From: Octopus vulgaris | Lineage: Eukaryota | DNA: 64,000 nt | Assembly (NCBI GenBank): GCA_951406725.2 | Contig: OX597817.1 | Span: 75,950,001 to 76,014,000 of the forward strand | Direction: 5' to 3' | In this document: positions 9,406 to 62,744 of the stretch, piece after piece | Layout of the letters: each line of letters starts with the position of its first letter | Position numbering within the stretch: position 1 is the stretch's first letter | Notes under the pieces: model-generated | What the model saw: only the letters and a program-made list of their open reading frames with translations | Told to the model about the DNA's origin: nothing | Databases searched by the model: none | Translations under genes and position numbers: made by a program

Positions 9406-9638
<233 letters not shown>

Positions 9639-9801
9639 GTATATATATACGTAAATATAAGAGAGTGACCACTATGTGGTCGAATCTTGCACTAAAAATA
9701 GATCCGCTGGTTTCAGCCACGAAGAATTGTTTCCGATGAAAGTTAGCACAACTATCACCGTAAACGAACAGGGTAAATAAAAAATAACAAAATTGCAGAT
9801 T

Positions 9802-9880
9802 AATTCAGGACAATTGTTTCGCTATTAATAAATTATGCAATTTTACTCACATAGCATATCTGTAGCTCATCAGCTGAATT
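9802..9880 (-). ncRNA. Type I hammerhead ribozyme (inverted copy of 10363-10441)
   Basis: Plus strand aattcag-ga-caattg-tttc-gcta...tagc-tcatcag-ctgaatt is the reverse complement of a complete core. Confidence 0.82.
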
Positions 9881-10362
9881 TGTCTAGAATACAATTTACT
9901 CAACCGCATGCCAGATTTTACCATAACGATAAACACACATGCGGTTCAGTCGATTGCATTCGCCGTTATGATTCAAGTGCCCCCGCCAAAACCCGCCAAA
10001 ATTCACGGAAACATACTACATCAAAAATTAAATGCAGTATAATTACAATCAACTAATAAGGGTGAGAAAATTGGATACTAATTTAATAGTACCATTAATT
10101 TAATACCAAGTGGCTTAGTGCATAAAAACCAAGAATACAATAAATTTTATACGTAAATATAAGGGAGTGACCACTATGTGGTCGACTCTAGCACTAAAAA
10201 TAGATCCGCTGGTTTCAGCCACGAAGAATTGTTTCCGATGAAAGTTAGCACAACTATCAGCGTAAACGAACAGGGCAAATAAAAAATAACAGACTGAACC
10301 GCATGTGTGTTTATCGTTATGGTAAAATCTGGCATGCGGTTGAGTAAATTGTATTCTAGACA

Positions 10363-10441
10363 AATTCAGCTGATGAGCTACAGATATGTTATGTGAGTAA
10401 AATTGCATAATATATTAATAGCGAAACAATTGTCCTGAATT
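10363..10441 (+). ncRNA. Type I hammerhead ribozyme, minimal helix III
   Basis: aattcag-CTGATGA-gcta..(long stem atatgttatgtga/ttgcataatatat)..tagc-GAAA-c-aatt-g-TC-ctgaatt. All core nucleotides and helices I, II and III are present; GUC cleavage site after 10434. Confidence 0.85.
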
Positions 10442-10700
10442 AATCTTCAATTTTGTTATTTTTGTTATTTAAAGTGTAAACTGATAAATAAGGCATGATG
10501 ACGCCATCTTCATTCGTGAACAAGAAATGGTAGGATAAACAGTGTGAGAAGGAAGAAGGGAAAGGCGAGGGTGAAGTGAAAAGATGAAATGGGAGGGGAT
10601 GAAAGGATACAGAAAGGTTTAATGAACTATGAAGAGGTGTAGGAGTAGACAGAAAGCAAAAAACAAAAAAAAACAAAAACAAAAGAAGAATAAAACGTTC

Positions 10701-11448: not shown

Positions 11449-11527
<79 letters not shown>

Positions 11528-11528
11528 A

Positions 11529-11566
<38 letters not shown>

Positions 11567-11570
11567 CGCA

Positions 11571-11633
<63 letters not shown>

Positions 11634-11766
11634 TGATATATATATATAATCATATCAGAAGGGAAATGGAATTTAATTAAATTTAAAATATTCAATCAAA
11701 ATTTACATTTCCAGTGGTCTAGCGTGCAAAAAAATTAGTCAAGAAGACTATATATTAGTTATAAGA

Positions 11767-11987
11767 TATAGTGCATATTTATACACATAAGGAATCCACT
11801 TAGTGTGAGATTCGGCACATTAGAGAGAGCAGCTAGGTTCTATAGATGGTAAATGTTTTTCATTTCCAAATTTATTCCTGTTGAATTTTATCCGTTATTT
11901 TTGTGGTTTATAGATCCTAGCTGTTCTCTCTAATGTGCCGAATCTCACACTAAGTGGATTCCTTATGTGTATAAATATGCACTATAT
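11767..11987. repeat. Inverted repeat, ~80-bp near-perfect arms, in a TA-flanked module
   Basis: atagtgcatatttatacacataaggaatccacttagtgtgagattcggcacattagagag..ctagg / cctagctgttctctctaatgtgccgaatctcacactaagtggattccttatgtgtataaatatgcactat. Confidence 0.9.
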
Positions 11988-12461
11988 TGTGTGTATATAT
12001 ATATATATATATGGTCTGTATTTTTGAAATGAGTGTGTGTGGTTTTGGTGGCGTAACAGATGGCCTTGCGTATGTAGTAGTATGTTTAGACCCCGAAAGA
12101 ATGAAAGGCAAAGTCAACCTCGGCGTAATATGAACTCAGATCGTAGTGACAGACGAAATACGGCTATGCATTTCGCCTGGCGTGCTAATGATTCTGCTAG
12201 CACACCGCCCTATAAAGGCTTATAATAAAATATGATAAAAAATAATTTAACGGAATGGCTTAAAGACATACACAATTGTTTCTGACGAACTCTTTTAAAA
12301 GTGCCTGCTCGTGTGGGGCTGGTCGCCACGGAGCTTCTTACTAAGAGGCTTTCAAGGTTCTTATCTCTTTAAAGGTGAGAAAAGGTGGTGCGGGGGAATA
12401 GATTAACGCAGTTGTGGGTTCAAATAGCAGGATTCAGAAATATTTTGCTGTTTGAGTAAAG

Positions 12462-24872: not shown

Positions 24873-27655
24873 ACTGAGCTAATCTCTGGAAATGATGTAA
24901 GATCAAGAAAAGGTAGGAAGATTGTGAGAAAATATGGACATCAAGAAGAGAAGAACTAATGTCAGCGAAAGAAACACTTAAACAAAAAGTTCAAGCAAAA
25001 GCTCAGAGAATACGCAGATTTGAGAAAAGAATCAAATTCTACAAACAAAATAAGATGTTCAAATCCATTGCCAAATCATTTTACAGGGAAATAGGGAAAG
25101 AAAAAATGGAAGAAGTTGAAAACTTTTGGAAGGGGATCTGGAGTGATGAGAAACCATACAATGAAAATGCAGAGTGGATCAAACGCACCCAAGATGATTA
25201 CAAAATTCTACAAGAACAGGTATGGGAAGACATCTCAATCGCCGACCTAAGGAGAGCACTAACGAAGGCTCATAAGTGGAAATCTCCTGGTATTGATAGA
25301 GTACCAAATTTCTGGCTCTCATCACTCTCGTCCGCACACAAAATGTTAGTAATACTATTTAATAGTATTATGAAAGACCCGAAAAAACACCACATTGGAT
25401 GGCAAATGGTATTACTTACCTCCTCCCCCAAAAATAACAAAACGAAAACCCAAAATACTATCGGCCTACAACATGTTTATCTACTACCTATAAGATCTTG
25501 ACATCTATTCTAGTAGAGAAAACATATACGTTTATCGAAGAGAATAACCTCTCTCCCACTGAACAAAAAGGATGCAGACGAGGCTCATACGGATGCAAAG
25601 ATCAGCTCCTAATTAATCGCATGATCCTTGAGAACTGCCATAACAAGCGCAGAAATCTCAGCTCTTCATGGATTGATTATAAAAAAGCCTTTGACAGCAT
25701 ACCAAATTCGTGGATTCTGAAATCGCTGGACATTTTCAAAATTTCTCCTGTGATTTCAGATTTTTAAAATTATAATATGTCACTATGGAACACGAAGCTC
25801 CAATTATATCATTCTAATGGAGTATTGCACTCAAACAACATTAGCATAAACTGTGGAGTTTTCCAAGGTGACTAACTTTCACCACTAATATTCTGCATAG
25901 CACTAATACCACTCTCAAGTGAACTGAATAGAACAGGATATGGCTACAAAATTGACAACAAGAAAATAAGCCATCTATTTTATATGGATGAGTTAAAGCT
26001 ATATGGCAAAGATGATGAAGAGCTTGAAGGATTATTACATACTGTGAAAGGATTCAGTGATGATATCGGGATGGAGTTTGGCCTTAAAAGTGTGCCAAAG
26101 CCACTTTTAAGAAAGGGAAATTGGTAAAGTCTAGTTCAATCGAATTAGATGTCGAAATAGTAATAAAGGAACTTGAGCAGGAACAAACCTATAAATACCT
26201 AGGAATAAATGAAGGCTCTGGTATCCAGCATGCAAGCATGAAAGAGAAGGTTAGGAAAGAATGTTATAGAAGAGTTCGAGCAGTCCTGAAGTCTGAGCTG
26301 AATGCATATAATAAGATTTTAGCCATAAATTCCTTAGCAGTACCAGTTGTTCTTTATAGCTTCAATGTGCTTAACTGGAATACTAGTGAAATAATGAAAA
26401 TTGACAGGAAAATCCGCAAGCTACTGACTTGTAATAAGATGCACCATCCAAAGGCAGACGTGGATCGCATTTACCTTCCCAGAGCTCAGAGAGGTCGAGG
26501 TTTGATCCAGCTTGAACTTACATACAAAACCACCACAATCGGACTGGCCAAATACCTTGAAGCAACCAACGATTGGATGCTAAAACTTGTTGAAAAACAT
26601 GAAAGACCTAAAAAACTTTACTCTATTCTCAAAGAGAGTTAAAAATTCGCTGCTGATCTCTTAGATACCCGCCAGATTGACCAGGCTGAAGGAAATGCGC
26701 CAACTGCAGCTGCAAAGAAGATAAAATTAATTGCAAAGACAAAAGCACATGAAAATTTAACTAGCAGATGGGAACAGAAACCTTTCCATGGCAAGTATGT
26801 GGCCCGTAGCAAACAAGCTGATGTCGACTTGAAACACACGCACCAATGGTTACGAAGTTCAGGGCTAAAAGCAGAGAGTGAAGGTTTCATATTAGCTGCT
26901 CAAGACCAAAGCTTATTTACTCGGAACTACCAAGCCAATGTGATGAAAAATAGAGCTGACCCAAAATGCCGATTCTGTAACGATGAGATTGAAACAATAG
27001 ACCACCTAATCTCAGGGTGTAGAGTCTTAGCGCCCGCAGAATATAAAGCAAGACATGACAGAGTCGGCCAGTATTTACATTGGACAATATGTTGGCATTA
27101 TAAAATCAAAACCGCTGACAAATGGTATAAACATCATCCTGAAGCTGTGACTGAGGAAGAAAATGTGTCGATTCTATGGGACTTCCCCGTGCAGACCGAC
27201 AGGACTATAAAAGCCAATAAACCGGATATCATTATAAAAGATCAGACAAAAAGGATGTGTTTATTAATTGACATGAGTATTCCCTGTGATCACAATATAG
27301 CGGCGAAAGAATTTGACAAGATTAGTAAATATAAAGACCTGCTAATGGACATTGAAAAAATGTGGCATCTCAAGGCGACTACAGTACCAGTGATTGTAGG
27401 ATCTCTAGGAATGATAAAAATACGCACTGAAACCTATTTGAAAATGATTCCAGGCTTACCATCCCTACAGGAAGTGCAAAAAATCGTATTAACTGCAACG
27501 GCTCATGTACTGAGAAGAGCACTATCGCTGTGAAAATAACATCCATCCATGAATTTATTTATTTATTTATTAATTTTTAAATGCATATTTTATCTGTGAA
27601 TTTACGCATGTAATCTGGGAATGCATACAATGCCCTTCTCTGCCCTAGATGTCTC
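24873..27655 (+). mobile_element. R4/Dong-clade non-LTR retrotransposon (REL endonuclease), subfamily A; 5'-truncated, decayed
   Basis: ORF pieces 24959-25501, 25498-25767, 26121-26642 and 26799-27533 give RT motifs (KSPGIDRVPNFW, EQKGCRRGSYGCKDQL, WIDYKKAFDS, YMDE for YMDD), a CCHC knuckle CRFCNDEIETIDHLISGC, RHD, and REL motifs KPDIIIKD..LIDMSIP..K..KY. Preceded by (AAT)n; the 3'UTR is cut by a SINE at ~27656. Confidence 0.93.
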
Positions 27656-27754
27656 CTAAGGATAAAAGGCAAAGTTGACTTCGGCGAAATTTGAACTCAG
27701 AACGCTAAGCGTTTTCTTCCGGTGTGCTAACGATTCTGCACGCTCGTCACTTTA

Positions 27755-27856
<102 letters not shown>

Positions 27857-27866
27857 ATAATAATGA

Positions 27867-28220
27867 TGATAAAATGCTTTCTAATCCCAACAGATGAAAA
27901 TGTACCTAAACGATACAGAAACACAAAGATCTGGAATTAGAGATAGCTCGTATATAGAGCCTGAAGCAGAAATAATTCCTATAATAATAAGTGCATTAGG
28001 TTTGGTTAAATTCATACAAACAAATGCATAACCAAAACATCTGGGCTTACGAATATAACATACAGAAAATAGAACTTCTAATCACTGCACATCTCTTACG
28101 TAAAGGACTTTCAGCACAGTAAAAGTAACAACACCAAAACGAACCACAACATATACCCAAGGCACAGAGAGCTGTGCTCGGTAGTGCAGTGAAAGTACAT
28201 GATAAAAATAACACCACTGA
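27867..28220 (+). mobile_element. Older, diverged 3' fragment of Dong subfamily B
   Basis: Aligns by eye with 31140-31527 (aaaatgctttctaat..., cccaaggcacagagagctgtgctcggtagtg..., actgaataataat). Confidence 0.85.
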
Positions 28221-28231
28221 ATAATAATAAT

Positions 28232-28299
<68 letters not shown>

Positions 28300-28332
28300 T
28301 AATAATAATAATAATAATAATAATGATAATAA

Positions 28333-28690
28333 AAATTGAAAAATGTGGCATCTCAAGGCAACTACAGTACCAGTGATTGTAGGATCCCTAGGAATGATAA
28401 AAAAAGGTACTAAAACCTATTTGAAAATGATTCCAGGCTTACGATCCCTACAGGAAGTGCAAAAAATCGTATTAATTGGAACGGCTCATGTACTGAGAAG
28501 AGCATTATCGCTGTGAAAACAACATCCATCCATGAATTTATTTATTTATTAATTTTTAAATACATATTTTATCTGTGAATTTGCGCGTGTAATCTGGGAA
28601 TGCATACAATGCCCTTCTCTGCCCTAGGTGTATGGAAAACACTCGGCTAGAAACGGAAGAAAATTTTAAGAAAGAAGGAAAAAACATCAT
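28333..28690 (+). mobile_element. 3' fragment of Dong subfamily A with complete 3'UTR
   Basis: Near-identical to 27350-27650 (tgtggcatctcaaggc..gagcattatcgctgtgaaa..gcccttctctgccctag); flanked by (AAT)n/(ATC)n. Confidence 0.9.
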
Positions 28691-28774
28691 CATCATTTTC
28701 ATAATAATAATCATAATAATAATAATCATAATAATAATCATAATAATAATCATAATAATAATAATAATAATAAC

Positions 28775-31527
28775 GCTACTGAGCAACAAAAAGAGAACAA
28801 AAATACTCCGCAAATATAACATCACAGAGAAAGATTTGCCTGAAATAAAAGAAAAGCTGAAGCAAGATATCCTTGCCAAAGCACAAAGGATCCGCCGGTA
28901 CAAGAAACGCCAACGCTTCTTTGAAGAAAACAAAAAGTTCAACTCCAACCCCAAAAAGTTCTACCAAGAACTGGGAAAAAATAAAATAGAAGTCACTGCA
29001 GCACCAACGGCAGAAGAATTGGAAGAATTCTGGAAAGAAATATAGTCGGCGAACGAACAGCCAAAAAAAAGGAGTATGAAAATAACAAACTCGGCATCTG
29101 AACAACTTTGGACCCCCCATAACAACTGAAGAGGTCACCCAGGCACTGCAAAAACTAAGCAACTGGAAGGCACCTGGGCATGACAAGATCCCCAACTTTT
29201 GGTTGAAATATCTAACAGGAATGCACAAAAAGCTGGCTGAAAACTTTAACAGCATACTAACAGAGCGAGAGACAATGCCTGAATGGCTCACGAAGGGGAA
29301 AACCATCTTAATTCCCAAATCAAATGAAACAACAAAACCAGAAAACTACAGACCAATAACCTGCCTCCCTACTATGTTCAATGCATTTACTGCAGTGATA
29401 TCGCAAAGGCTGAACAAGCACCTGGACGAAAACAAACTGTTCCCAGAAGAGCAGAAAGGATGCCGCAAGGGCTCATATGGCTGTAAAGATCAACTAATGA
29501 TTAATAAAGCCATAACTGAAGACAGCCACAGAAAGAAGAAAGGCCTCAGTATGGCCTGGATTGACTACAAAAAGGCGTTTGATAGCATCCCCCACACATG
29601 GATCCTCGAAACACTAGCCATTAACAAAGTAGCACCAACAATCATAAAATTCATAGAGCACTCTATGAATAAATGGCAAACAGTCCTACACCTCCAAACA
29701 AAAGAGGGACTCATGAAAACCAAAGACATCCCCATTAGAAGAGGAATATTCCAGGGAGACACGCTCTCTCCACTCCTTTTCTGCTTGGCACTGTCACCTC
29801 TATCTAATATGTTAAATAGAACTGGATGCGGATATAAATGTTACGGCAAAACGATCAGCCACCTTTTATATATGGATGACCTAAAACTATACGCTGCAAA
29901 TGACAAACAGCTGGAAACACTATTAAAGACAGTTCATGGATTTACCAAAGAAATAGATATGAAATTTGGATTAGAAAAATGCGCCAAAGTAACCCTGAAA
30001 AGAGGAAAACTAGATAAGAGTAACAACATCACACTAGATAAAACCAATGAAATAAAAGAATTAGACCAAAGCCAAACTTACAAATACTTAGGAATCCATG
30101 AACTAGATAAGACACAACACACACAAATGAAAGAGAAAATAAAAAAAGAATATTATAGACGAGTTAGATCAATACTAAACACAGAGCTCAATGCTAAAAA
30201 CAAGATAATAGGTATCAACACTTTAGCTGTCCCAGTTATAAGTTACAGCTACAATATCCTTAACTGGACACGAAATGAACTGACCAAAATAGATAGGAAA
30301 ACAAGAAAAATAATGACAGGATCTAGGATGCATCACCCAAAATCTGACATAGAAAGACTATATATATAACGTATAGAATGTGGTAGAGGCCTTATACAGC
30401 TGGAAAACTACTATAAAATAACCACCATAGGACTGCAAAAATATCTACTTCAGAAGGAAGGAAAACTGATCCAGATAGCGGCAAAACACGAGCAAAACAA
30501 AAAACTGTTCTCAGTATTTAAGGAAGCTGACAAATACAAACAAGAAATCATACCACCTAATAAACATGAAGAAGAAGAAGAAGATGAAGAAACAACAAAA
30601 GCTATAAAACAAATGAAATCCAAACTAAAAATAGAACAGCAACGAACCATGATAAAACGATGGCAAGAAAAGCCCCTTCATGGTAAATACTGGACTAAAC
30701 TAAACGCAAAAGAAATAGACAAAGAAAAATCCCAGCAATGGTTGAGAAGCTCAGGACTCAAAGCAGAAACAGAGGGATTTTTAATTGCAGCACAAGACCA
30801 AAGCCTCCCCACCAGAAATTACCAAAAACATGTAATGAAAAGAAATATTACAAGTAACTGCAGAATATGTGGAGATGGACAAGAAACAATAAATCATATT
30901 ATCTCTAGCTGCCCAGTCTTGGCTAAGCAGGAATACATTCACAGACATGACAGAGTTGGAACCTACATACATTGGAAGCTATGCCAACATTATGGAATAA
31001 CAACAGAAAAAAGATGGTATAGGCACACACCAGAAAAGATCACAGAAAACGAGAAAGCAACCATACTCTGGGATATGACGATACACACAGATAGAGAAAT
31101 TAAGGCCAACAGACCAGATATAGTTGTCAGAGATCATGAAGAATAAAATGCTTTCTAATTGATGTATCAATACCGGCTGATGACAACGTGTCTCTAAAAG
31201 AAATGGAGAAACTCTCAAAATACAAAGACCTGGAAATAGAGGTAACTAGAATGTGGAATCTGAAAACAGAAACAATTCCTATCATAGTAGGTGCATTAGG
31301 CATGATAAAAAAATATTCAGACAAATACGTAACAAAAACACCAGGACTTACAAAGACATATAACATACAGAAAATTGCACTACTAGGCACTGCACACATC
31401 CTACGCAGAACACTTTCCATACAATAACCATCAGAGCATCACAACAAATCACAGCACATACCCAAGGCACACAGAGCTGTGCTCGGTAGTGAAGTGAAAG
31501 CACGCTATAAAAATAAAACTACTGAAT
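28775..31527 (+). mobile_element. R4/Dong-clade LINE, subfamily B; 5'-truncated, with stops/frameshifts
   Basis: ORF 29203-30369 has RT (NYRPITCL, DYKKAFDS, GIFQGDTLSP, HLLYMDDLKLY, YKYLG). 30613-31146 has CRICGDGQETINHIISSC, RHD and RPDIVV. 31188-31427 ends ...GTAHILRRTLSIQ. Flanked by (AAT)n on both sides. Confidence 0.94.
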
Positions 31528-31548
31528 AATAATAATAATAATAATAAT

Positions 31549-33051
31549 ATTTAGGGATAAATGAAGGCTCTGGTATTCAGCATGCAAGCATGAAAGAGAA
31601 AATCAGGAAGGAATGTTATAGGAGAGTTCGTGCAGTCCTGAAATCTGAACTAAATGCACTTAACAAGGTGTTAGCTATAAATTCCTTAGCAGTTCCAGTT
31701 GTTACTTATAGCTACAATGTGTTGAACTGGAATATGAGTGAAGTAAAGAATATAGATAGGAAAATACGCAAGCTGCTGAGTTGTAATAGGATGCACCACC
31801 CAAAGGCAGACGTAGATCGCCTTTACCTTCCCAGAGCCCAAGGAGGTCGAGGCCTGATCCAATTTGAACTAGCTTACAAAACAACCACAATTGGACTGGC
31901 CAAATATCTCGAAATATCGAATGACTGGATGCTAAAGCTCGTGGAAAATCACGAGAGACGAAAGAAGCTTCATTCTATCATAAAGGAAAGCAAAAAATTT
32001 GCTATTGATCTCGTGCAGGATACCCAAACTGAACAACCCGAGGGAAGTACGGCAACTATTGTTGCAAAGAAGGTGAAAATGATGACAATGAAAAAAGCGC
32101 ACGAGCAATTGGCTGATAGGTGGGAGGAGAAACCTCTGCACGGCAAATATGTGACCCGCAGCAAACAAGCTGATGTTGACCAGAAGCAAACCCATCAGTG
32201 GCTACAGAGCTCAGGGCTAAAAGCAGAGAGCGAAGGTTTCATCCTCGCTGCTCAAGATCAAAGCCTATTAACCCGGAACTACCAGGCCAATGTAATGAAA
32301 AATGGAGCAGACCCAAAATGCCGATTCTGCAACGACATGATTGAAACAGTGGACCACCTAATCTCTGGATGTAAAGTCTTAGCACCAGTGGTGTATAAAT
32401 TAAGACATGACAGAGTTGGCCAATATCTCCACTGGCTAATAAGTCGGCATTACAATATCAAAACTGCCGACAAGTGGTATAATCACCACCCTGAGGCTGT
32501 AACTGAAGGAGAAAATGTAACCATTCTGTGGGACTTTCCAGTACATACAGACCGAACCATCAAGGCCAATAAACCAGATATTGTTGTGAAAGACCAAAAC
32601 AATAAAGTTTGCTTATTGATCGACATGAGCATCCCCTGTGATCATAATATCTCAGCAAAAGAGTTTGACAAGCTCAGAAAATATAAAGACCTACTCATTG
32701 AAATTGAGAAAATGTGGCATCTCAAGGCGGTTACAATACCAGTGATCGTAGGAGCACTAGGAATGATCAAGAAGGGAACCGAAAATTATATGAGAATGAT
32801 CCCTGGCTTACCATCCCTGCAAGAAGTGCAAAAGATTGTCTTAACTGGTACATCACACGTATTGAGAAGAGCATTGTCGATGTGAGAACTGTTGCTGCTC
32901 ATGTATTTTAATTTAACTTAAAAAAAAAAAAAATGAACGAATTACTGAGTTTGGTTTAATGGCCTACCGATGTATACTATGAGTTCCTTTGCCCTAGGAG
33001 TCGGGAAGACGCTCGGCAAGAAATGGAAGCAAATTTGAAAGAAGAAAAAAA

Positions 33052-37484: not shown

Positions 37485-37890
37485 GTATGTATGTATATTC
37501 AGCAACGATATTCTATAGCATAAATTTTCGAGTATACAAATATGCAGGCGAGCGTCGTCGTCGCACAACCAATATATATACACACTCGTAGAAATATACA
37601 CCAAAGTAGAATTCACATCTCTCTTTTACAACCACGTGTAGAATGCCGAGACATACTCTGCAGTTAATGAAGTTTTGATGAATGAGTAAATTTTTCAAAT
37701 ATTAATTATAACAACCAAGTGTGTTATTTTCGAGAATTTTAAGGCGGTAATAGTGTCTTTTTGGCGTCTATTTTTCCAGCGCGTGGAGAAGCTTCTGGGC
37801 AATCCCTTGTTATAATTTTGTATATAATTATAAAATATTTGTAAAGTTTACTTATAAGGTTTTTATTTCCACGCTGACCCCCTGGTAAAA

Positions 37891-37977
37891 CCATTAATGA
37901 TTTTTACCCTATATTATTATTATAATGTATATATACATACTTATTATAATAATAATAAAGGGTAAAAATCATTAATG

Positions 37978-37978
<1 letters not shown>
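37891..37978. repeat. AT-rich hairpin
   Basis: cattaatgatttttaccct..ttattattataat / attataataataataaagggtaaaaatcattaatg. Confidence 0.75.
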
Positions 37979-38039
<61 letters not shown>

Positions 38040-45479: not shown

Positions 45480-47345
45480 TAGAAATGAGATTCTCTGGAA
45501 TCACAGTAAATGCAATGAAGCAGGAAGCAAAAGCAGCAAGAATATAGAATTCCTAAACATCCTGATAGAAAATGGCTATCCTTACTCTTTCACAAAAGAC
45601 CGGTCATCATCAGAAACCTAATACAACCCACACGTCAAAGGTTAACGTGTTTTTTGAAACTGCCACATTTTAATTAAAAACAAAAAAAAACACTTGCTGC
45701 AATGCGCCGTACAGTCCGTAGGGAGAAATTAGATATATGCCTGGCACGCTCAGAAACTTCCTGAGTGGGGTCCTAACTAACTTACTGGTAATGGAAGAAT
45801 TGATGACGCGCATCCTCGATGATAGTGATGCTGTTGACATCGTTTTATTGGACTTTGCCAAAGCTTTTGACTCGGTAAACCACCGCCTATTACTTGTCAA
45901 GCTTCAAGCATATAGTTTCGATCCGGATATTGTACGATGGGTTGTTGCCTCCCTCTCAGATCGCTCCTTCCAAGTCCAAGTTAATGGTTCACGGTCCGAC
46001 GTCTCCAATGCGAGCAATGGCATGCCTCAAGGTTCAGTGCTTGGGCCCTTATTGTTCTTAGTCTTCATAAATGACTTGCCCGACGACCTCACGCAACACA
46101 CCCTTCTATTTGCCGACGATGTCAAACTGGTCGCTCCTCGCGGTGATATAGAGGATCTTCGTCGATGCCTCCACCAAATTTGGAGATGGTCTAACGAATG
46201 GGACCTGTGTCTGAACGTGTCAAAGTGCTGTCATCTGCCTGTTGGCTCTCCTCTTGCAACTCAACTTGATTTCGAGCCGGGTCGTCTGCTACTGGAGAGG
46301 ACCGATCAGGTAAAGGACCTGGGTATCTTGGTGGATTCCTCCTTTTCGCCTTCGGTCCAGTGCGTCCATGCTACCAACAAAGCACACGGAATTCTGTTTT
46401 TGATTCGACGGTCATTCGGAATGCTCGCAGCAGCCATATTCCTACCGCTCTACGTCACGCTGGTGAGACCCATATTGGATTCAAGCCTCTTCTCCTTATC
46501 TCCTCAAAGATATACAGCATCTCGAAAGAGTCCAGAAGCTGGCTATCCGCATGGTTCTTGGTCTCAAGAATGTGTCTTATGAAGAAAGGCTGAAGACGCT
46601 CGACCTCTATTCTCTAGAAAAACGACGACGCCGTGGAGATCTCATTCTTGCTCACAACATCATAAGCAGAAAGTGTAACCTCTCGAAAGAGCTGTCCTTA
46701 ACTCCTGCCCCAGAGCGTCGGCTGCGGGGTCATTCCGAAAAGCTCTATCTGCGACGATTTCATCTCAATCGAAGGAGAGGGGCTTTCTCGGTCCGGGTTG
46801 CGGATCCGTGGAATAAGCTGCCAGACGAGATGGTGAAGATGCCGACGACCGCTCAGTTCAAAGTCTCCCTTGACCTCAAGCGGCCTGAACTCTTTACATG
46901 AACACCACCCTGTACATAACTCCATGTCCCCCTACATGGCCTTGCTTTTTGCTTTTTGAGCCAAAAAATTAACTAACAACAGGCCATGACAAAACACCAC
47001 ATGTTCATTGCCCAATAGCCCTGTCAGTGACGAAAATATATGTCTGCAGTCCTACGTTATGTGGCAATTGTAATGAATCTTACATGGGAAGTACCATCCG
47101 ACAAGTAGCATACGTATTAAAGAATACCTCTATGCTAATGATTCTTCCATCAAAACACACCTAGCGAAATTCCATAACAAAGATCACATAGTGTCCATTG
47201 AAGAAACAGAAAAAAGACATTGGGAAAAAAACATTGGGAAAAAGTACAACCAACTTAACACAGTATTCAAAGTTCACAAAGCTAATTGTTACTATGGCAA
47301 CACGAAAAGCAACCCCTCATACTCACACGCTATAGAAGAGAAAAG
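45480..47345 (+). mobile_element. Old Penelope-like element fragment split by the CR1 insertion
   Basis: FLNILIENGYP (PLE thumb motif L..NGYP) at ~45550 lies left of the CR1; CGNCNESYMGSTIR..RIKEY (GIY-YIG Y.G.T.R) at ~47060-47130 lies right of it. Confidence 0.6.
45765..46978 (+). mobile_element. CR1-like LINE, 5'-truncated (RT + C-terminus + tail)
   Basis: ORF 45737-46582: LTNLL..DIVLLDFAKAFDSVNH..GMPQGSVLGPLLFLVFINDL..LFADDVKL..KDLGI. ORF 46551-46901: SYEERLKTLDLYSLEKRRRRGDLI..LRGH..FSVRVADPWNKLP. Ends aattaactaac. Confidence 0.92.
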
Positions 47346-47484
47346 TTACCTAACAATGTCTTTTATTCGAAGGTATCCTGTAAAGGGGTTATAACCCTAA
47401 AATATTGAAATACCAAGTAAAAGAACTAAGTACTGACGTGTACTATTAATTCTTTCTAGCTAGCACTGGTTTGGTTCAAAAATA

Positions 47485-47525
<41 letters not shown>

Positions 47526-47590
47526 ACTCATATATTTATATTTCTATCTTTTTGTATTTAAGTATATATGTAAGTATGTACGCATTATAT

Positions 47591-48257
47591 TTTTCCAACG
47601 ACAAACTGTCGCTGATCTCGAAAAAGGAGAAATAAGTTATATTAAATCTCCGAGCGAGAGGTAAACAGTAACATTACGGAATCGTAAAATATATTTGCCA
47701 ACTAAATGTGGCTGTCCCACAAAAGACGATGTTACTGTTACTTTTAGCCTCAGGAAGACGTCTCCTCCAGCTGGCTAACGACCCACTGTCTCTGTCCGAT
47801 TAGTATTTATGAGGGGAGGTAACTAAAGACAGGGAACTACCAAGAAACCCGTGTCTGTGTGTATCACGTAAGGTCCTCTGAGTTGGCAAATATTTTTTAT
47901 GATTCCGTACTGTTACTGTTTACCTCTCGCTCAGAGATTTAATATAACTTATTTCTCCTTTTACCAGATCAGCGACAGTTTCTCGTTGGAAAAAGCATAT
48001 AATATTTTTGCGTTAGGAATGAGTTTTCATCGCTAGCTGGTGATTATCGCACTGAAGACGCGTAACTACCCACAAACACATCTATGTATTCCGTAAGGCT
48101 AGAGATGGGAGTGATGATCCCCACTTGCAAATAGTAATCGGACACAGACAGTGTGTTGTTAGTCAGTTGGAGGGGAGGTTTTCCTGGGGCTAAAAACAAT
48201 AGTAACGTCGTCCTCTATGGGACTGCCACGTTTAGTTGGCAAATATATTTTACGATA
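47591..48257. repeat. Complex inverted-repeat module (47591-47704 vs 47881-47994; 47681-47808 vs 48128-48257)
   Basis: Reverse-complement matches read directly, e.g. ttttccaacgacaaactgtcgctgatc / gatcagcgacagtttctcgttggaaaa. Confidence 0.8.
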
Positions 48258-48752
48258 TATATACGTACATATGCACATAAGCACACACATATGCATACTT
48301 ACCTACACAAACATACACACTATTGTGCTGTGCTCACGATCATACAGGTGAGTGAATTGATGTGAGCCACGTTTATTCAATCTTGCTTCAGTCTATTCAA
48401 ACGAAGTGAGTAACGGCCGAGTGCTGGCGCAATCTTCTCTTATTTCAGCTCACATGCCATAGATATTAAAGGGTGGAGCAACTGAGAATATCTGCTTGCG
48501 TTTTTAAGCGAATGAAATAATTAGCGACACATAGTCCATGCTAAGTGAGAGCGCGTCGCTTAGTGATTAGGAAGTTGCGCACTAACCACTGAGAAATCGG
48601 GGTTTCGATACCCAGAGCGGGCGGTACGCACCGTTGCGTTCTTGAGCAAAACACTTTATGTTGCGTGCCTCTGCGGTCACAGGCTAAACATCTGTGCAGG
48701 TTGTGCAACAAGTTGCGTACCTTTGTTTTTCTTCAAGAAAAGATGTGTTCAC

Positions 48753-48826
<74 letters not shown>

Positions 48827-48829
48827 ACG

Positions 48830-49500
48830 GATAACCCCCACCCTAGTAAATTAATTCAATATAGCCCCTAACTCTATACATATAAACCCAATGCACCTAC
48901 AAAACTAACCCTCAGAACTACAACTATAGTGCCAATGTAAACACCCGACCCTTAAATGTACCACAACGCCCAAATATACCTCCTGTCATAACAGAGAACA
49001 ACCGACCAATATCACCCTCAACTCCTTAGCAAATGATAACCTTAGCACCAACTATAATAACGACCCGAACACGGATTTTTCACTAAATAACAATCCCCTC
49101 TCAAGCTCATCCGGAATAACCCCTACAAACCTATGCAGCTTCAGATGTCCAAACTCCTGTCTTTTAGATAACCGGTGTCTCACTAAAAACATAGTTTATC
49201 AGTGCACAGCATCAGCTAACAACTGTAACTGCATTTACATCGGCTCAAGTAGCACAACCTTCAAAGCCAGGTTTAGCAATCACTATTCTAGCTTCAAATT
49301 TCAAACAAAATTAAGCAGTACATCGTTATCTCAACGCTTGACTCAACTCCATATAGTCCATTATCTCCCACACCAAACCTTACAGCGGATATAACAAGTG
49401 TGATCTATGCATAGCCGAGGTCACGGCTATTTTGCAATCCACGGAATGTCTTAATGAAGGCAGCAGTATAATATTCACCTTCAAGCATCGGGCACTAAAT
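48830..49500 (+). mobile_element. Decayed Penelope-like GIY-YIG endonuclease region
   Basis: CSFRCPNSCLLDNRCLTKNIVYQC..IYIGSSSTTFKARFSNHYSSF..STSLS..KCDLCIAE; begins directly after (TA)n. Confidence 0.8.
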
Positions 49501-56991: not shown

Positions 56992-58162
56992 CAGGGTGGG
57001 GAAGCAAAATTTACAATAATTTGAGGCAGGGATTGAAAGACAGTGTATGACCAGTTTGTTTATTGAGGCGTTCCTCAAATATTCGACAGACAACTTCTCC
57101 CGTTCTTCTTTAATAGTATCTTTAAGAGAGTCGACATTGCTGTGTGATGTTCTATTGGTAGCATGTTCTAAAACACCCCAAATAGCATAATCCAGAGAGT
57201 TTAGATCTGGGATAGAAGGCGGCCATAAACATGATTACAAAAAATTGCTAAAGTTGGATTTGCAGAATTCTTGTATTTTTCTAGCTGTGTGGGCTGGAGC
57301 ACCATCATGTGTCCATACATAATTACCATCTGGGTAGTTTGCTTTAAGCTATGGCAATACCTCGTATCTCAGAGTCTTGTAATAAGTATTAACATTGATC
57401 TTTTCATCAGCTTTGTAGAATTTTATAGGCATTTTCTTTCCATCGGAAGCCACAACACCAAAAGCCATAACTTGAGCAGGATCTTTTATTTTGAATATTC
57501 CTTTAATCTCAGCTGTTGATTTTGCGATAAATCTGTCATTTCTGTTGTTCAGAACAGCATCGACCGTGAAGATCTTTTCATCTGAAAAGATCGTTACAAT
57601 GGAGAACTTTTTCTTGAACCATGTGATAATTTTCTTGCATCTCTCCAATCTCTTTTCCTTCATAGCTGTTGTCAACAAGTGTTTTGGTGTTCTTGTGTAA
57701 GATTTTAACCTCAAATCATATTTTACAGAATTTCTAATGGTCTTGTTGTCTATCTCAAGTTCAATTGCCATTTTCCTCATGGATTTAGTTGGATCCTTTA
57801 GGATTTTGGATTTGAGTGCTTTAATAAAAGCTTTGGTACGATTTTGTTGATTCCTCAACTTCCAGACTTCCTCGTAATAGTTTTGGTCATAGTCATTCTA
57901 TTATTTACATTATAAACAGTCTTTATGGACACTCCAACTATTTTTGAAATCTCTTTTGGTGTGATGAGTGCATTTAGAAAATCACACACTCTTTGACGTT
58001 TGCTTTCCTGATTACTAATATGGGCAAAAGTTTCTGAAAAGGTAAGGATAATAGTGTTAGAAATGAGTATGACATCAATATATGCTAGGTTTCAAAAAAA
58101 TTGACTTAGTGCCTGGTGAGAAAAAGCAACTTAACGTTCATTGTAAATTTTGCTTCCTCACC

Positions 58163-58220: not shown

Positions 58221-58430
58221 TTTTAGTTTTTCTTTGATTTGTTTCAGTCATTTCACTGCGGCCATGCAGGAGCACCACATTTAGTGGAGCAAATCGACCC
58301 CAGTACTTGTTCTTTGCTTTGTACGCCTTATTCTATCGGGCTCTTTTGCCGAACCGCTATGTTACGGGGACGTAAACACACCGGCATCAGTTGTCTAGTG
58401 ATGTCGGGGGAACACACACACACACACACA
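58218..58430 (-). mobile_element. SINE 3' half, same family
   Basis: gtttcagtcatttcactgcggccatgcaggagcacc..ttttgccgaaccgct..ggggacgtaaacaca. Confidence 0.75.
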
Positions 58431-59651
58431 TAGATATATATAAAGTAATACACTAAGGAAAGGAATTCCTTCAAAGGAGTGTATAAAACATCCAATTCAC
58501 TGGTACGTCAGTTGAATACTACATAAATATGGGTATAATGCAAATTACAAACAATTAATTAGAGAGATTCAATTAATAATCCAATTTATTTATATTATAA
58601 TATAACATAATATACTATCAATGTGATATAAGATAACATAAAAATCATTAAAAACCAAAATTGACTTATATACATTATTTGATTTATAAACAATTGAGTC
58701 CGCTTATATGAGTCTCATCAGAGCTATGGTTTAACGACAGACGAAATTCTGTGTGAAAGGACAGCTGGACTGTAAAAACTTTAATTCAAATTCTTATGTA
58801 TTATGAGCATGAGCGTTAACTTTTCAAGTACGTAACAATTACAATTAAAAAATACAACAGAATTATAAAGGACAAAATAATTAGCTAAACAGAATCTACA
58901 ACCATCGAAATATATTTCTATATATCTCAAATTATATTAATCCAAATTCGTTTAGGTAGAAGACAATCTTTGGCTGTTATAATAACATACAATAATATAG
59001 GTACATAAATTAAGTATTAGGGTCTTACTTAATGTAGAGACTGTAATAAACGTGTAAATATATATAAATGATGATATAGTATTATATTGGTAATATATAA
59101 CACTTCTTCTCTTTATTGAAAGTTATTGATAATAAACAAATTGTTTAAAGTAACAAACAAAAAATGTTTTTTTTTATTTATTTAGTTTATCGGAGGGAGA
59201 ATTCCGTAATAAATATGAATATAAACTTAGAACTACAATAACTACAACCTATATTACCCCGTAGATATAGAGTTAGGCTATAATAATGGATATCAAAATA
59301 TTACTAGTTTCTTAGAAGTAATGAGATTTGAAGTAACTTAGATAAGGATTATTCACAGTAACTAACAAGTAAATGTCCCTATATTATGGATTGAGTACCG
59401 GTCCTCGATAAACTTAAACGATATTATTTTTCATATAAATGACTATAAATAGTATGTATCCAAATTTTATTAATTCTTCCAGTAGTAACAAGATAATATT
59501 GTTGTAATAAGAATACAAATTATAAACTATACAATACTAATGCTACTACTGAATAATAATAATTATTATTTTGGTTATTAAATTTAGTTAGTAAGTCAAA
59601 TAAAAGTATTCATTTGTTGTTGTTGTTGTTACTATATATACATGTGCATTA

Positions 59652-60717: not shown

Positions 60718-60789
<72 letters not shown>

Positions 60790-60790
60790 G

Positions 60791-62668
60791 AAAATAGTAA
60801 AAAGTGAAAAAACTACAGAAGGCTTGTTTTATAAGGTTAAATAATATATTTGAGTCATTATGTTGGAAGAATGTTATAAAATTTTTTCATACAGTAACAT
60901 TGTTTTTGAAGAAATTACCGGTTTCGTGTTAACATTTCAAATTTCTCGAGTGTCTTTACCTACATCGTTTTATGTCTTCGTTATGAATCAAAAAGTAGGT
61001 ATTGTTTAGCGTCTGTGGCTTTGTAAAAAATGTCTGTTTCTATTTTAAGGTTAATTTTTTTAATTAGTATATCTAAGAATGGAAGCTCCTTTTGGTTGTA
61101 TTCCATTGTGAACTGTATATCTGGGTTGATGCTGTTCAATAGGTTTTTGAATTTTAGGAGTTTATCTGTGTTTTAATTCCAGAGTATAAAACAATGGTCC
61201 AGGAATCTTTTCTAATTCTCTTTTATGTATTGAGAGAGGGGGTTTCCAAAGGTCGATAAAGATTCCTGGTATATAATTATTTCCAGGTTGCCCATTGTTA
61301 GGTTCGCAATGACTGGTGCTGCCCTTGTACCCATAGCAATTCCGGATTTTTGACGGTAAAATGTATTGTCAAACATGAAGTGGTTATTATGTAATACAAC
61401 CAAAAGGAGCTTCCATTCTTAGATATACAAATTAAAAAAATTAACCTTAAAATAGAAACAGACATTTTTTACAAAGCCACAGACGCTAAACAATACCTAC
61501 TTTTTGATTCATGCCACCCAAGACACACTAAAACAAACATCCCTTTCAACCTTGCAAGAAGGATATGCACAATAGTGTCAGAACAAAATACCAGGAATCT
61601 TAGACTACAAGAACTCAAAAACACCCTAATTGACAGACACTACCCAGCTCAACTCATAGAGGATGGGATCAGACGTGCAACAGAAATCGACATAGAAACT
61701 TTGAGAAAAGTTCAACACAACAACACACCTACCCCGAAAATACTGCCTTACATATCCACATACAACCCCAGAAACAAAGAAGCCTTCACCATCATCACCC
61801 AGAATTTACCAATACTTCATAAGGACCCCAAATTAAAGGAAATTCTAAACATACATAAAATCATTAAAAGCTACAAACAACCTAAATCACTTAAAAAGAT
61901 ACTCACAAAGGCAAAATTGTTTTCTGAAACTACGGATGCAAAAGTAAAAAAAATGTGGTAAACCAAACTGCGCAACATGCCCAAAGCTTCTAGAAGGATC
62001 AGAATTCCTTTTCAAAGAGGGACAAAAATTCAAGATCAAATCTAATTTTACTTGGGCTTCTGAAAACATAATTTATGTCATAAGATGCTCGGGCTGCCAC
62101 CAAAACTACGTGGGGTCCACGGGACTATCACTCAGACGTAGATGCACTCTGCATCGACAACAGATTGCATTCCCAGAATACAGAATGATACCCTTTAGTG
62201 AGCATATTGAGAAATGTGCAAAGCAACTACTACCACAATTTTTAATCTTTCCATTCTATCAATGTGCTATTGGAACACCAACACAAATTAGATTAAACAA
62301 GGAAACATTCTTCATTGAAAATATAAACCCAAACTTAACCATTCTAACATTCTTATACAGAGAAACTCACCCCATTAAATAAAGGGAAAAGAAATATAAA
62401 GCGATTATCTCCCTTATACCGGAAGAAATTGCTTATTACCGCCCCCTACCTGGAACTCTACTTTGCACTTCATAACAAAGACATAACACGATGTAGGTAA
62501 AGACACTCGAGAAATTTGAAAAGTTAACACGAAACCGGTAATTTCTTCAAAAACAATGTTACTGTATGAAAAAAAAATTATAACATTCTTCCAACATAAT
62601 GATTCAAATATATTCTTTAACCTTATGAAACAAGCCTTTTGTAGTTTTTTTCACTTTTTACTATTTTC
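60791..62668 (+). mobile_element. Penelope-like element (Neptune-type) with inverted terminal pLTR and 5' inversion
   Basis: 61393-62382 (+): ELPFLDI..TDIFYKATDAKQYLLFDSCHP..IPFNLARRI..L.DRHYP; CGKPNCATC linker; IIYVIRC..NYVGSTG..RRRCTLH (GIY-YIG). 60983-61403 (-): NNHFMFDNTFYRQKSGIAMGTRAAPVIANL..KRFLDH (RT). 60791-60987 is the reverse complement of 62469-62668. Confidence 0.92.
62510..62546 (+). ncRNA. Minimal hammerhead ribozyme variant (U3:A8) in Penelope pLTR
   Basis: agaaat-TTGAAAA-gt-taac-ac-GAAA-ccgg-TA-atttct. The inverted copy at 60910-60946 has TTGAAAT. Confidence 0.62.
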
Positions 62669-62708
62669 TATATATCCAACCACGTGCTTTCACACACCAA
62701 TTTTCTCA

Positions 62709-62744
<36 letters not shown>

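What the first reader, a model, noticed from the sequence alone, without database searches (positions are those of the whole stretch)
9648..10470. Non-coding, TA-embedded module carrying two intact hammerhead ribozymes in opposite orientation
Seen: both copies have a complete type I core (CUGAUGA, GAAA, GUC), a 7-bp helix I, an unusually long helix II, and a 2-bp helix III closed by palindromic AAUU, all inside an A-B-C-A-B' repeat with no ORF. Known: Penelope-like pLTRs and retrozymes carry minimal type I hammerheads with palindromic helix III loops that work as dimers. Inference: this is a non-autonomous PLE/retrozyme-like family that would self-cleave RNA transcribed from either strand.
Basis: partly seen in the sequence, partly recalled or inferred. 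Interest (0 to 1): 0.85.

Follow-up and report, generated by a model that had tools for sequence, protein, structure and literature searches.

The report
Hammerhead retrozyme with a flipped end
This is one copy of a common, protein-free ~500-base repeat that carries a single predicted self-cutting RNA motif; the second, reversed motif is likely a by-product of the way Penelope-type jumping genes paste themselves in, not a two-way switch.

Summary
Two intact type I hammerheads (10363-10441 +, 9880-9802 -) sit in an ORF-less A-B'-C-A-B repeat; Rfam RF00163 passes for the + copy. Only the left side is (TA)n.

Contigs from 4 public runs show that the family unit is a head-to-tail ~502-bp C'-B-A' repeat with ONE hammerhead. 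This locus is 1.3 direct units on the minus strand plus a flipped 5' piece that overlaps the direct part by 10-16 nt. Both hammerheads point outward, so a read-through RNA from either strand meets the antisense arm first and is predicted to bury the ribozyme in a 172-bp duplex. Opposite-strand hammerhead pairs are already described for Penelope-like elements (PLEs), and a PLE remnant at 60.7-62.7 kb of this window shows one too.

Best reading: a new family of animal non-LTR retrozyme, likely mobilised by a PLE and predicted to cleave as a dimer. Less usual features are a 46-nt helix II and a template that crossed two cut sites uncut. Cleavage, circular RNA, the partner PLE and the host species are not shown. 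Interest 0.35.

The parts
9540..9649 (.). (TA)n-rich array at the element's 3' end, the likely target; it follows a SINE-like dispersed repeat
   Evidence: (D5)
9646..9789 (-). A', 3' terminal segment of the unit (144 bp), ends in the TA array
9780..9951 (-). B, hammerhead-bearing segment in its family position between C' and A'
   Evidence: joints
9802..9880 (-). Type I hammerhead of the full unit; predicted cut after 9809
9952..10147 (-). C', non-coding segment present once here
10148..10291 (-). Second A', the partial-tandem (pseudo-LTR-like) upstream copy
   Evidence: contigs bridging 10147/10148
10292..10471 (+). Inverted 5' piece: segment B flipped; its outer end overlaps the start of A' by 10-16 nt
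10293..10345 (+). Stable predicted hairpin upstream of the hammerhead (z -4.3), a block shared with other subfamilies
   Evidence: depth and loose ends at 10295 and 10345
10363..10441 (+). Second copy of the same hammerhead, inside the inverted piece; predicted cut after 10434

Best explanation
This is a single insertion of a multi-copy, non-coding ~502-bp repeat with one type I hammerhead per unit, likely a non-LTR retrozyme copied into the genome by the enzyme of a Penelope-like element, with the reversed hammerhead likely made by a 5' inversion during insertion. SHOWN: the unit order C'-B-A' head to tail, one hammerhead per unit, many diverged copies, no ORF, the 3' end in (TA)n, and a flipped upstream B piece. 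PREDICTED: the lone hammerhead rests in an inactive fold, and two copies in a tandem transcript pair through the palindromic helix III and cut, releasing ~502-nt monomers that could be circularised. INFERRED: a PLE RT/GIY-YIG protein nicked the TA tract and copied A'-C'... from an RNA longer than one unit (uncut multimer or circle). The opposite target strand primed a second time near the B/A' border and copied B, which gave the inverted piece (twin-priming geometry; concept recalled from L1 work, not from a call). PREDICTED consequence: the locus is ribozyme-silent in read-through RNA and forms a 172-bp duplex; only a transcript starting between the arms would fold the hammerhead.
For: (4 of 24 listed runs laid, all contigs): the C'-to-B joint (9952/10292) is in 4 of 4 runs; the B-to-A' joint (10283-10291/10453) in 3 of 4; and 3 listed records in 2 runs bridge A'-to-C' (10147/10148) with 31 or more letters on each side. 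None of the 32 listed pieces (of 899) crosses the inversion point 10291/10292. 505, 85, 213 and 70 contig records were laid, spread from 99+ to under 90% alike. Of 12 variable places in 10363-10434, none is among 14 core places except that the free N7 carries two major alternative bases in all 4 runs; 6 of the 12 are helix changes that keep pairing; active monomer -19.3 vs inactive MFE -22.4 kcal/mol; the double hammerhead (-49.8) is the cofold MFE, 5 kcal/mol better than two inactive monomers; circular monomer z -6.8; masking in read-through RNA; an RT+GIY-YIG PLE remnant in this window also has an inverted 5' piece with an outward-facing hammerhead copy. Papers: opposite-strand pairs 100-700 bp apart in Schistosoma (PMC4209133); inverted pLTR overlapping the direct one by 15 bp (PMC3846280); PLE protein cuts and extends both strands at AT-rich DNA and uses unprocessed RNA (PMC11167929).
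Against: No sequence link to any autonomous PLE: none to the window's own remnant (a shared 14-mer is not significant, 99 of 500 and 91 of 500 shuffles) and none to 40 fetched PLE loci. No array with two consecutive hammerhead units was seen, and short contigs cannot show one. No TSD of 7 nt or more. Avoidance of the core by variants has P = 0.058 only; 13 variant rows were hidden; no two-sided compensation could be read; five listed changes break pairs (10368 A>T, 10369, 10386, 10412, 10413). Contigs of collapsed repeats can be chimeric. In Li 2026 only 1 of 9 predicted retrozyme dimers cleaved. The classic PLE inversion mirrors the pLTR itself, whereas here the flipped piece is the sequence upstream of the direct repeat.
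Confidence: 0.7

Rival explanations
1. The module is the 5'-truncated end (pLTR region) of an autonomous Penelope-like element whose ORF is simply not included in this copy.
For: Most PLE hammerheads occur as single motifs in truncated copies (PMC4209133). Partial tandem, 5' inversion and microsatellite target are PLE hallmarks (PMC8557442). Loose ends at 10066, 10118, 10295 and 10345 show relatives that continue into other sequence.
Against: All three joints of a closed ~502-bp unit exist in family contigs, which leaves no gap for an ORF in this subfamily. No protein relic: best 23.1 bits vs 20.8-26.6 in 20 shuffles against 170 PLE proteins. The 4 hammerheads found on the ORF strand of fetched PLE loci (L121, L128, L129 twice) have 16-19 nt between core and GAAA, and the window's own PLE remnant has 8, against 46 here.
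Confidence: 0.13
2. A hammerhead-bearing minisatellite spread mainly at the DNA level; the flipped piece came from a local repair or template-switch event, and the ribozyme is a passive relic.
For: Li 2026 discuss tandem amplification by unequal crossover. No RNA evidence was obtained and no TSD found. Core conservation is only P = 0.058.
Against: The copy is isolated (no other in 64 kb) and ends exactly in a TA array. The inverted and direct parts abut with a 10-16-nt overlap. In run X1 a flank contig fits only from 10471 on, with 48 non-fitting letters before, a possible empty site (letters not shown).
Confidence: 0.1
3. One reading: a purpose-built ambisense module that cleaves RNA made from either strand.
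For: Both copies are intact and on opposite strands. Transcripts starting between the arms could fold them: minus strand from 10291 gives helix I and II probabilities of 1.0; plus strand from 9952 gives helix I 0.43 and helix II 0.95, and from 10148 helix I 0.01.
Against: The family unit has one hammerhead and no listed piece crosses the inversion. The copies differ by only 3 of 172 bases, as do the non-catalytic A copies (5 of 144), so intactness reflects youth. Read-through RNA masks both.
Confidence: 0.05

Closest known systems
Animal non-LTR retrozymes (Cervera & de la Pena 2020, PMC7229834; Li, Clavereau & Pollet 2026, 10.64898/2026.07.22.740005)
   Same: Non-coding head-to-tail unit, one type I hammerhead per unit, low GC (35%), highly self-paired predicted circle (66% paired), many diverged copies, PLEs in the same genome.
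   Different: The 502-bp unit is above the 170-400 nt of the 2020 paper but inside the 51-972 bp of the 2026 preprint. Helix II is extended to 46 nt. This locus is a 1.3-mer with a flipped 5' piece, not a dimer or array. Circular RNA and cleavage are not shown.
Hammerheads in pLTRs of EN+ Penelope-like elements (PMC4209133) and PLE tandem/inverted insertions (PMC3846280, PMC8557442)
   Same: Palindromic short helix III, partial tandem, inverted 5' piece with a short overlap, AT-rich target, no clear TSD, opposed hammerheads a few hundred bases apart.
   Different: No ORF; no bulged base after A9; 7-bp helix I; no homology to a PLE found; the inverted piece is the upstream segment rather than a mirror of the direct repeat.
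Rfam RF00163 Hammerhead_1 (type I)
   Same: All core positions and helices I and III align; 35.4 bits, above gathering.
   Different: 34-nt insertion in loop II.

Membership tests
Type I hammerhead ribozyme | Conserved core with helices I, II, III in type I order | tested here: met
   (RF00163 35.4 bits vs 34 for the + copy; the - copy has an identical core)
Type I hammerhead ribozyme | Self-cleavage after NUH | not testable with these tools
   Only energies: dimer fold favoured, active monomer about 0.1-0.2% of the ensemble
Type I hammerhead ribozyme | Family-wide core conservation and helix covariation | tested here: inconclusive
   0 of 12 variable places in 14 core places (P 0.058), N7 free, one-sided changes only, 13 rows hidden
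Metazoan PLE minimal hammerhead (Cervera 2014) | Unpaired base between A9 and G10.1; short helix I (4-5 bp) | tested here: not met
   G10.1 follows A9 directly; helix I is 7 bp
Metazoan PLE minimal hammerhead (Cervera 2014) | Palindromic 15.2-16.2 / loop 3 | tested here: met
   8-nt palindrome
Animal non-LTR retrozyme | Non-coding unit of a few hundred bp, low GC | tested here: met
   502 bp, GC 0.35, longest frame 99 aa, no PLE relic
Animal non-LTR retrozyme | Head-to-tail units, one type I hammerhead each, multi-copy | tested here: met
   three joints and 70-505 laid records per run
Animal non-LTR retrozyme | At least two consecutive hammerhead-bearing units somewhere in the genome (Li 2026 criterion for 'active') | tested here: inconclusive
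   Not at this locus (one direct hammerhead); no genome held; no listed contig piece is long enough
Animal non-LTR retrozyme | Expressed as unit-length linear and circular RNA | not testable with these tools
   No RNA holder on record; contigs cannot show ends or strand
Autonomous Penelope-like element | ORF with RT and GIY-YIG endonuclease | tested here: not met
Non-autonomous PLE derivative | Homology to the pLTR of an autonomous PLE | tested here: inconclusive
   None to the window's remnant or 40 PLE loci from other hosts; the host's own PLE set was not available
Non-autonomous PLE derivative | Partial tandem plus inverted 5' piece, AT-rich/microsatellite target | tested here: met

The most novel reading that the evidence does not exclude
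A large, undescribed retrozyme family (probably of an octopus) that replicates through a ~500-nt circle and uses a new hammerhead architecture: loop 2 is replaced by a long arm, and helices I and II each carry the same CA/AA 2x2 internal loop that may form the tertiary contact. This locus would then be a fossil of reverse transcription running round the circle past two cut sites and being primed twice.
Probability: 0.2. Interest if true: 0.6.

Novelty: new member of a known kind. Interest (0 to 1): 0.35.

Why it matters
It adds a high-copy retrozyme family, with an unusually long helix II, in an animal group for which my searches found no report (if the host is a cephalopod, which is not established). 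The insertion records how such RNAs get in: the template ran through two predicted cut sites uncut and was likely primed on both target strands. That fits the 2024 in vitro finding that a PLE protein extends both strands and prefers unprocessed RNA. It also shows that opposed hammerhead pairs in animal genomes should not be read as ambisense ribozymes.

Tried and rejected
No genome is held, so there was no copy count or array search. The Rfam gathering scan of the whole window gave 0 hits; the local E-value scan found the motif.

Pattern scans: metagenome contigs 0 hits twice; viral contigs 9 and prokaryote genomes 110 stretches matched a loose pattern, but 0 of 120 matches had helices I and II and none resembled the unit, so these are chance. 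The search for related loci with P0001 found nothing.

No RNA holder was listed. Run X10 is only guessed to be RNA, so it is not used as evidence of expression. Three listed contigs end at 10434, the predicted cut, but two are from a run guessed to be DNA and contigs cannot show RNA ends, so this is not used.

Rejected ideas: a relic second hammerhead in A' (280 of 500 shuffles score as well); a relic PLE ORF in the unit; a 14-mer link to the window's PLE 3' end; distant family members at 11481 and 37721 (149 and 244 of 300 shuffles). TSD search negative. Bacterial promoter and tRNA scans were uninformative.

The host could not be named: one Octopus bimaculoides protein among mollusc and other marine hits at 58%, no named close hit. 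Summed depths (16-4400 times a single flank contig) are not a copy number. Look-ups of earlier findings by sequence, place and first word set were empty.

Full report
OBSERVATION. The window is animal DNA rich in microsatellites and retroelement remnants. No genome is held. The host is probably an octopus; that rests on my recollection of its repeats and on one Octopus bimaculoides name among many marine hits, and is not established. The module runs from 9646 to about 10471: (TA)n 9540-9649 | A 9646-9789 | B' 9780-9951 | C 9952-10147 | A 10148-10291 | B 10292-10463/71 | ordinary flank. Rfam RF00163 scores the + copy at 35.4 bits, above gathering, although the fast whole-window scan missed it. 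Helix II is 4 bp, a 2x2 internal loop, up to 14 further pairs and a 6-nt loop; helix I also continues past a 2x2 loop of the same letters. The longest stop-to-stop frame is 99 aa, and 170 PLE proteins find no relic above shuffles.

THE FAMILY UNIT. 20 of 24 listed public runs (4 coded organisms, 8 studies) hold part of the module, at most 27% of its words. I laid 4 of them on the non-redundant stretch 9952-10640 (contigs only). 505, 85, 213 and 70 records fitted, with likeness spread from 99+ to under 90%, so the family is multi-copy and diverged. The joint C'-to-B appears in 4 of 4 runs, B-to-A' in 3 of 4, and A'-to-C' is bridged by 3 listed records in 2 runs. These are the three joints of a closed ~502-bp unit read on the minus strand. 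None of the 32 pieces shown (867 not shown) crosses 10291/10292, the inversion point; pieces stop at 10283-10285 or start at 10292. A joint 10029/10295 and loose ends at 10066, 10118, 10295 and 10345 show other subfamilies, one probably shorter by about 80 bp. One X4 record matches 10454-10604 without a difference (only 18 letters on the element side). One X1 record fits the flank only from 10471 on, with 48 unfitting letters before it, perhaps an empty site.

VARIATION. In 10363-10434, 12 places vary among the rows shown (13 rows of the table hidden). The only one inside the core boxes is N7, the free position, with A and G both common in 4 of 4 runs. Six of the 12 are helix changes that keep a pair through G-U/A-U exchange, and so does a seventh at 10358 in the outer helix I. 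One is an unpaired loop base. Five listed changes break pairs, three of them in one 2-bp patch of the distal arm. Avoidance of 14 core places has P = 0.058, and two-sided compensation could not be read. This fits selection on the ribozyme but does not prove it.

HOW THE LOCUS AROSE (inferred). On the minus strand the locus reads [B flipped]-A'-C'-B-A'-(TA)n; un-flipped it is B-A'-C'-B-A', 1.6 units. The flipped piece's outer end overlaps the start of the direct part by 10 identical bases, up to 16 with a 2-base insertion. This is the geometry of twin priming (recalled from L1 literature). The 3' end lies 163 nt past one cut site, and the flipped piece reaches 143 nt upstream of another, so the template crossed two cut sites intact: an uncut multimer or a circle. 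The two copies of each repeat differ by 2-3%, so the event is young. No TSD was found.

FUNCTION (predicted). Alone, the hammerhead prefers an inactive fold in which the core extends helix I (-22.4 vs -19.3 kcal/mol for the + copy). Two copies give the double hammerhead as the cofold minimum (-49.8, against -44.8 for two inactive monomers); tertiary contacts and Mg2+ are not modelled. The 502-nt unit folded as a circle is 66% paired, z -6.8 against 60 shuffles. Because both hammerheads point outward, read-through RNA of either strand makes the antisense arm first: 77-78 of 79 ribozyme bases pair with the other arm and helix I/II probabilities are 0.0. A minus-strand RNA starting at 10291 folds both helices with probability 1.0.

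PLE CONTEXT. The same window holds a broken RT+GIY-YIG PLE (61395-62382; 68-75% to P0001). Its 3' UTR has a small hammerhead with the U3-A8 core variant (62509-62547), and an inverted 5' piece (60722-61394) repeats that hammerhead region at 88%, pointing outward, with one core change. A further small hammerhead lies at 41044-41000 (0 hits in 60 shuffled windows). So opposed hammerheads arise twice in 64 kb. 40 PLE loci were fetched from contigs filed under prokaryote bins. 4 of them gave descriptor hits (6 in all); the 4 hits on the ORF strand have 16-19 nt between core and GAAA, and none of the 40 loci resembles the unit. The partner PLE is therefore not identified.

LITERATURE (what I saw). 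PMC4209133: parts 1-2 of 4 (results, discussion). It reports dual minimal hammerheads 100-700 bp apart on opposite strands, the U3-A8 variant, the dimer requirement and low activity. 10.64898/2026.07.22.740005: parts 1-3 of 5. It treats animal retrozymes as non-autonomous PLE derivatives, with units of 51-972 bp, and 1 of 9 dimers cleaved; its supplements are closed and could list related families. PMC7229834: passages and the mussel section; 'octopus' and 'cephalopod' occur 0 times. PMC8557442, PMC3846280, PMC5680766, PMC6765202 and PMC13282606 ('ribozyme' 0 times): passages only. PMC11167929: parts 1-2 of 4. Searches for octopus or cephalopod with hammerhead, ribozyme, Penelope or retrozyme listed no description of a cephalopod retrozyme. 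I saw only the listings (15 of 30, 20 of 51), the library lacks subscription journals, and Repbase and Dfam were not searched.

VERDICT. A real hammerhead in a new family of a known class (animal non-LTR retrozyme, likely PLE-mobilised). The opposed pair is an insertion by-product with precedent. What remains of interest is the long helix II with matching internal loops, and the record of an uncut, doubly primed template. Interest 0.35.

Noticed in passing
window 60722-62742: Broken RT+GIY-YIG Penelope-like element with a small U3-A8-core hammerhead in its 3' UTR (62509-62547, +) and an inverted 5' piece that carries upstream RT sequence (124-nt overlap, 98%) and a second, outward-facing hammerhead region (88%).
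   Followed up: partly
window 41044-41000 (-): Solo PLE-type minimal hammerhead (bulged base after A9, 6-bp helix II, 4-nt palindrome), with no other copy in the window.
   Followed up: partly
window 58385-58725 (-): An intact CUGAUGA box followed by a degenerate second box with an AAUU palindrome, then weak similarity to segment C' (12 of 300 shuffles as good): possibly an old relative of the family.
   Followed up: partly
window 47077-49394: GIY-YIG-like fragment (48930-49394, Pfam E 0.004) near nested inverted repeats at 47590-48256; no convincing hammerhead found.
   Followed up: partly
window 24917-32885: Cluster of at least three RT-bearing non-LTR retrotransposon remnants on the + strand, separated by trinucleotide repeats.
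   Followed up: no
window 11481-11990 (-) and 37850-37980: Other fold-back structures next to TA arrays, seen by eye in the printed sequence; not related to the unit by shuffling tests.
   Followed up: no
L123-L159 (GTDB bins, e.g. OZ220040.1, OZ220047.1): Contigs filed under bacterial MAGs carry many Penelope-like RT copies, in part regularly spaced; probably animal host DNA in the bins.
   Followed up: no
window 57349-57897 (-): Tc1/mariner-like transposase fragment (Pfam E 0.002).
   Followed up: no
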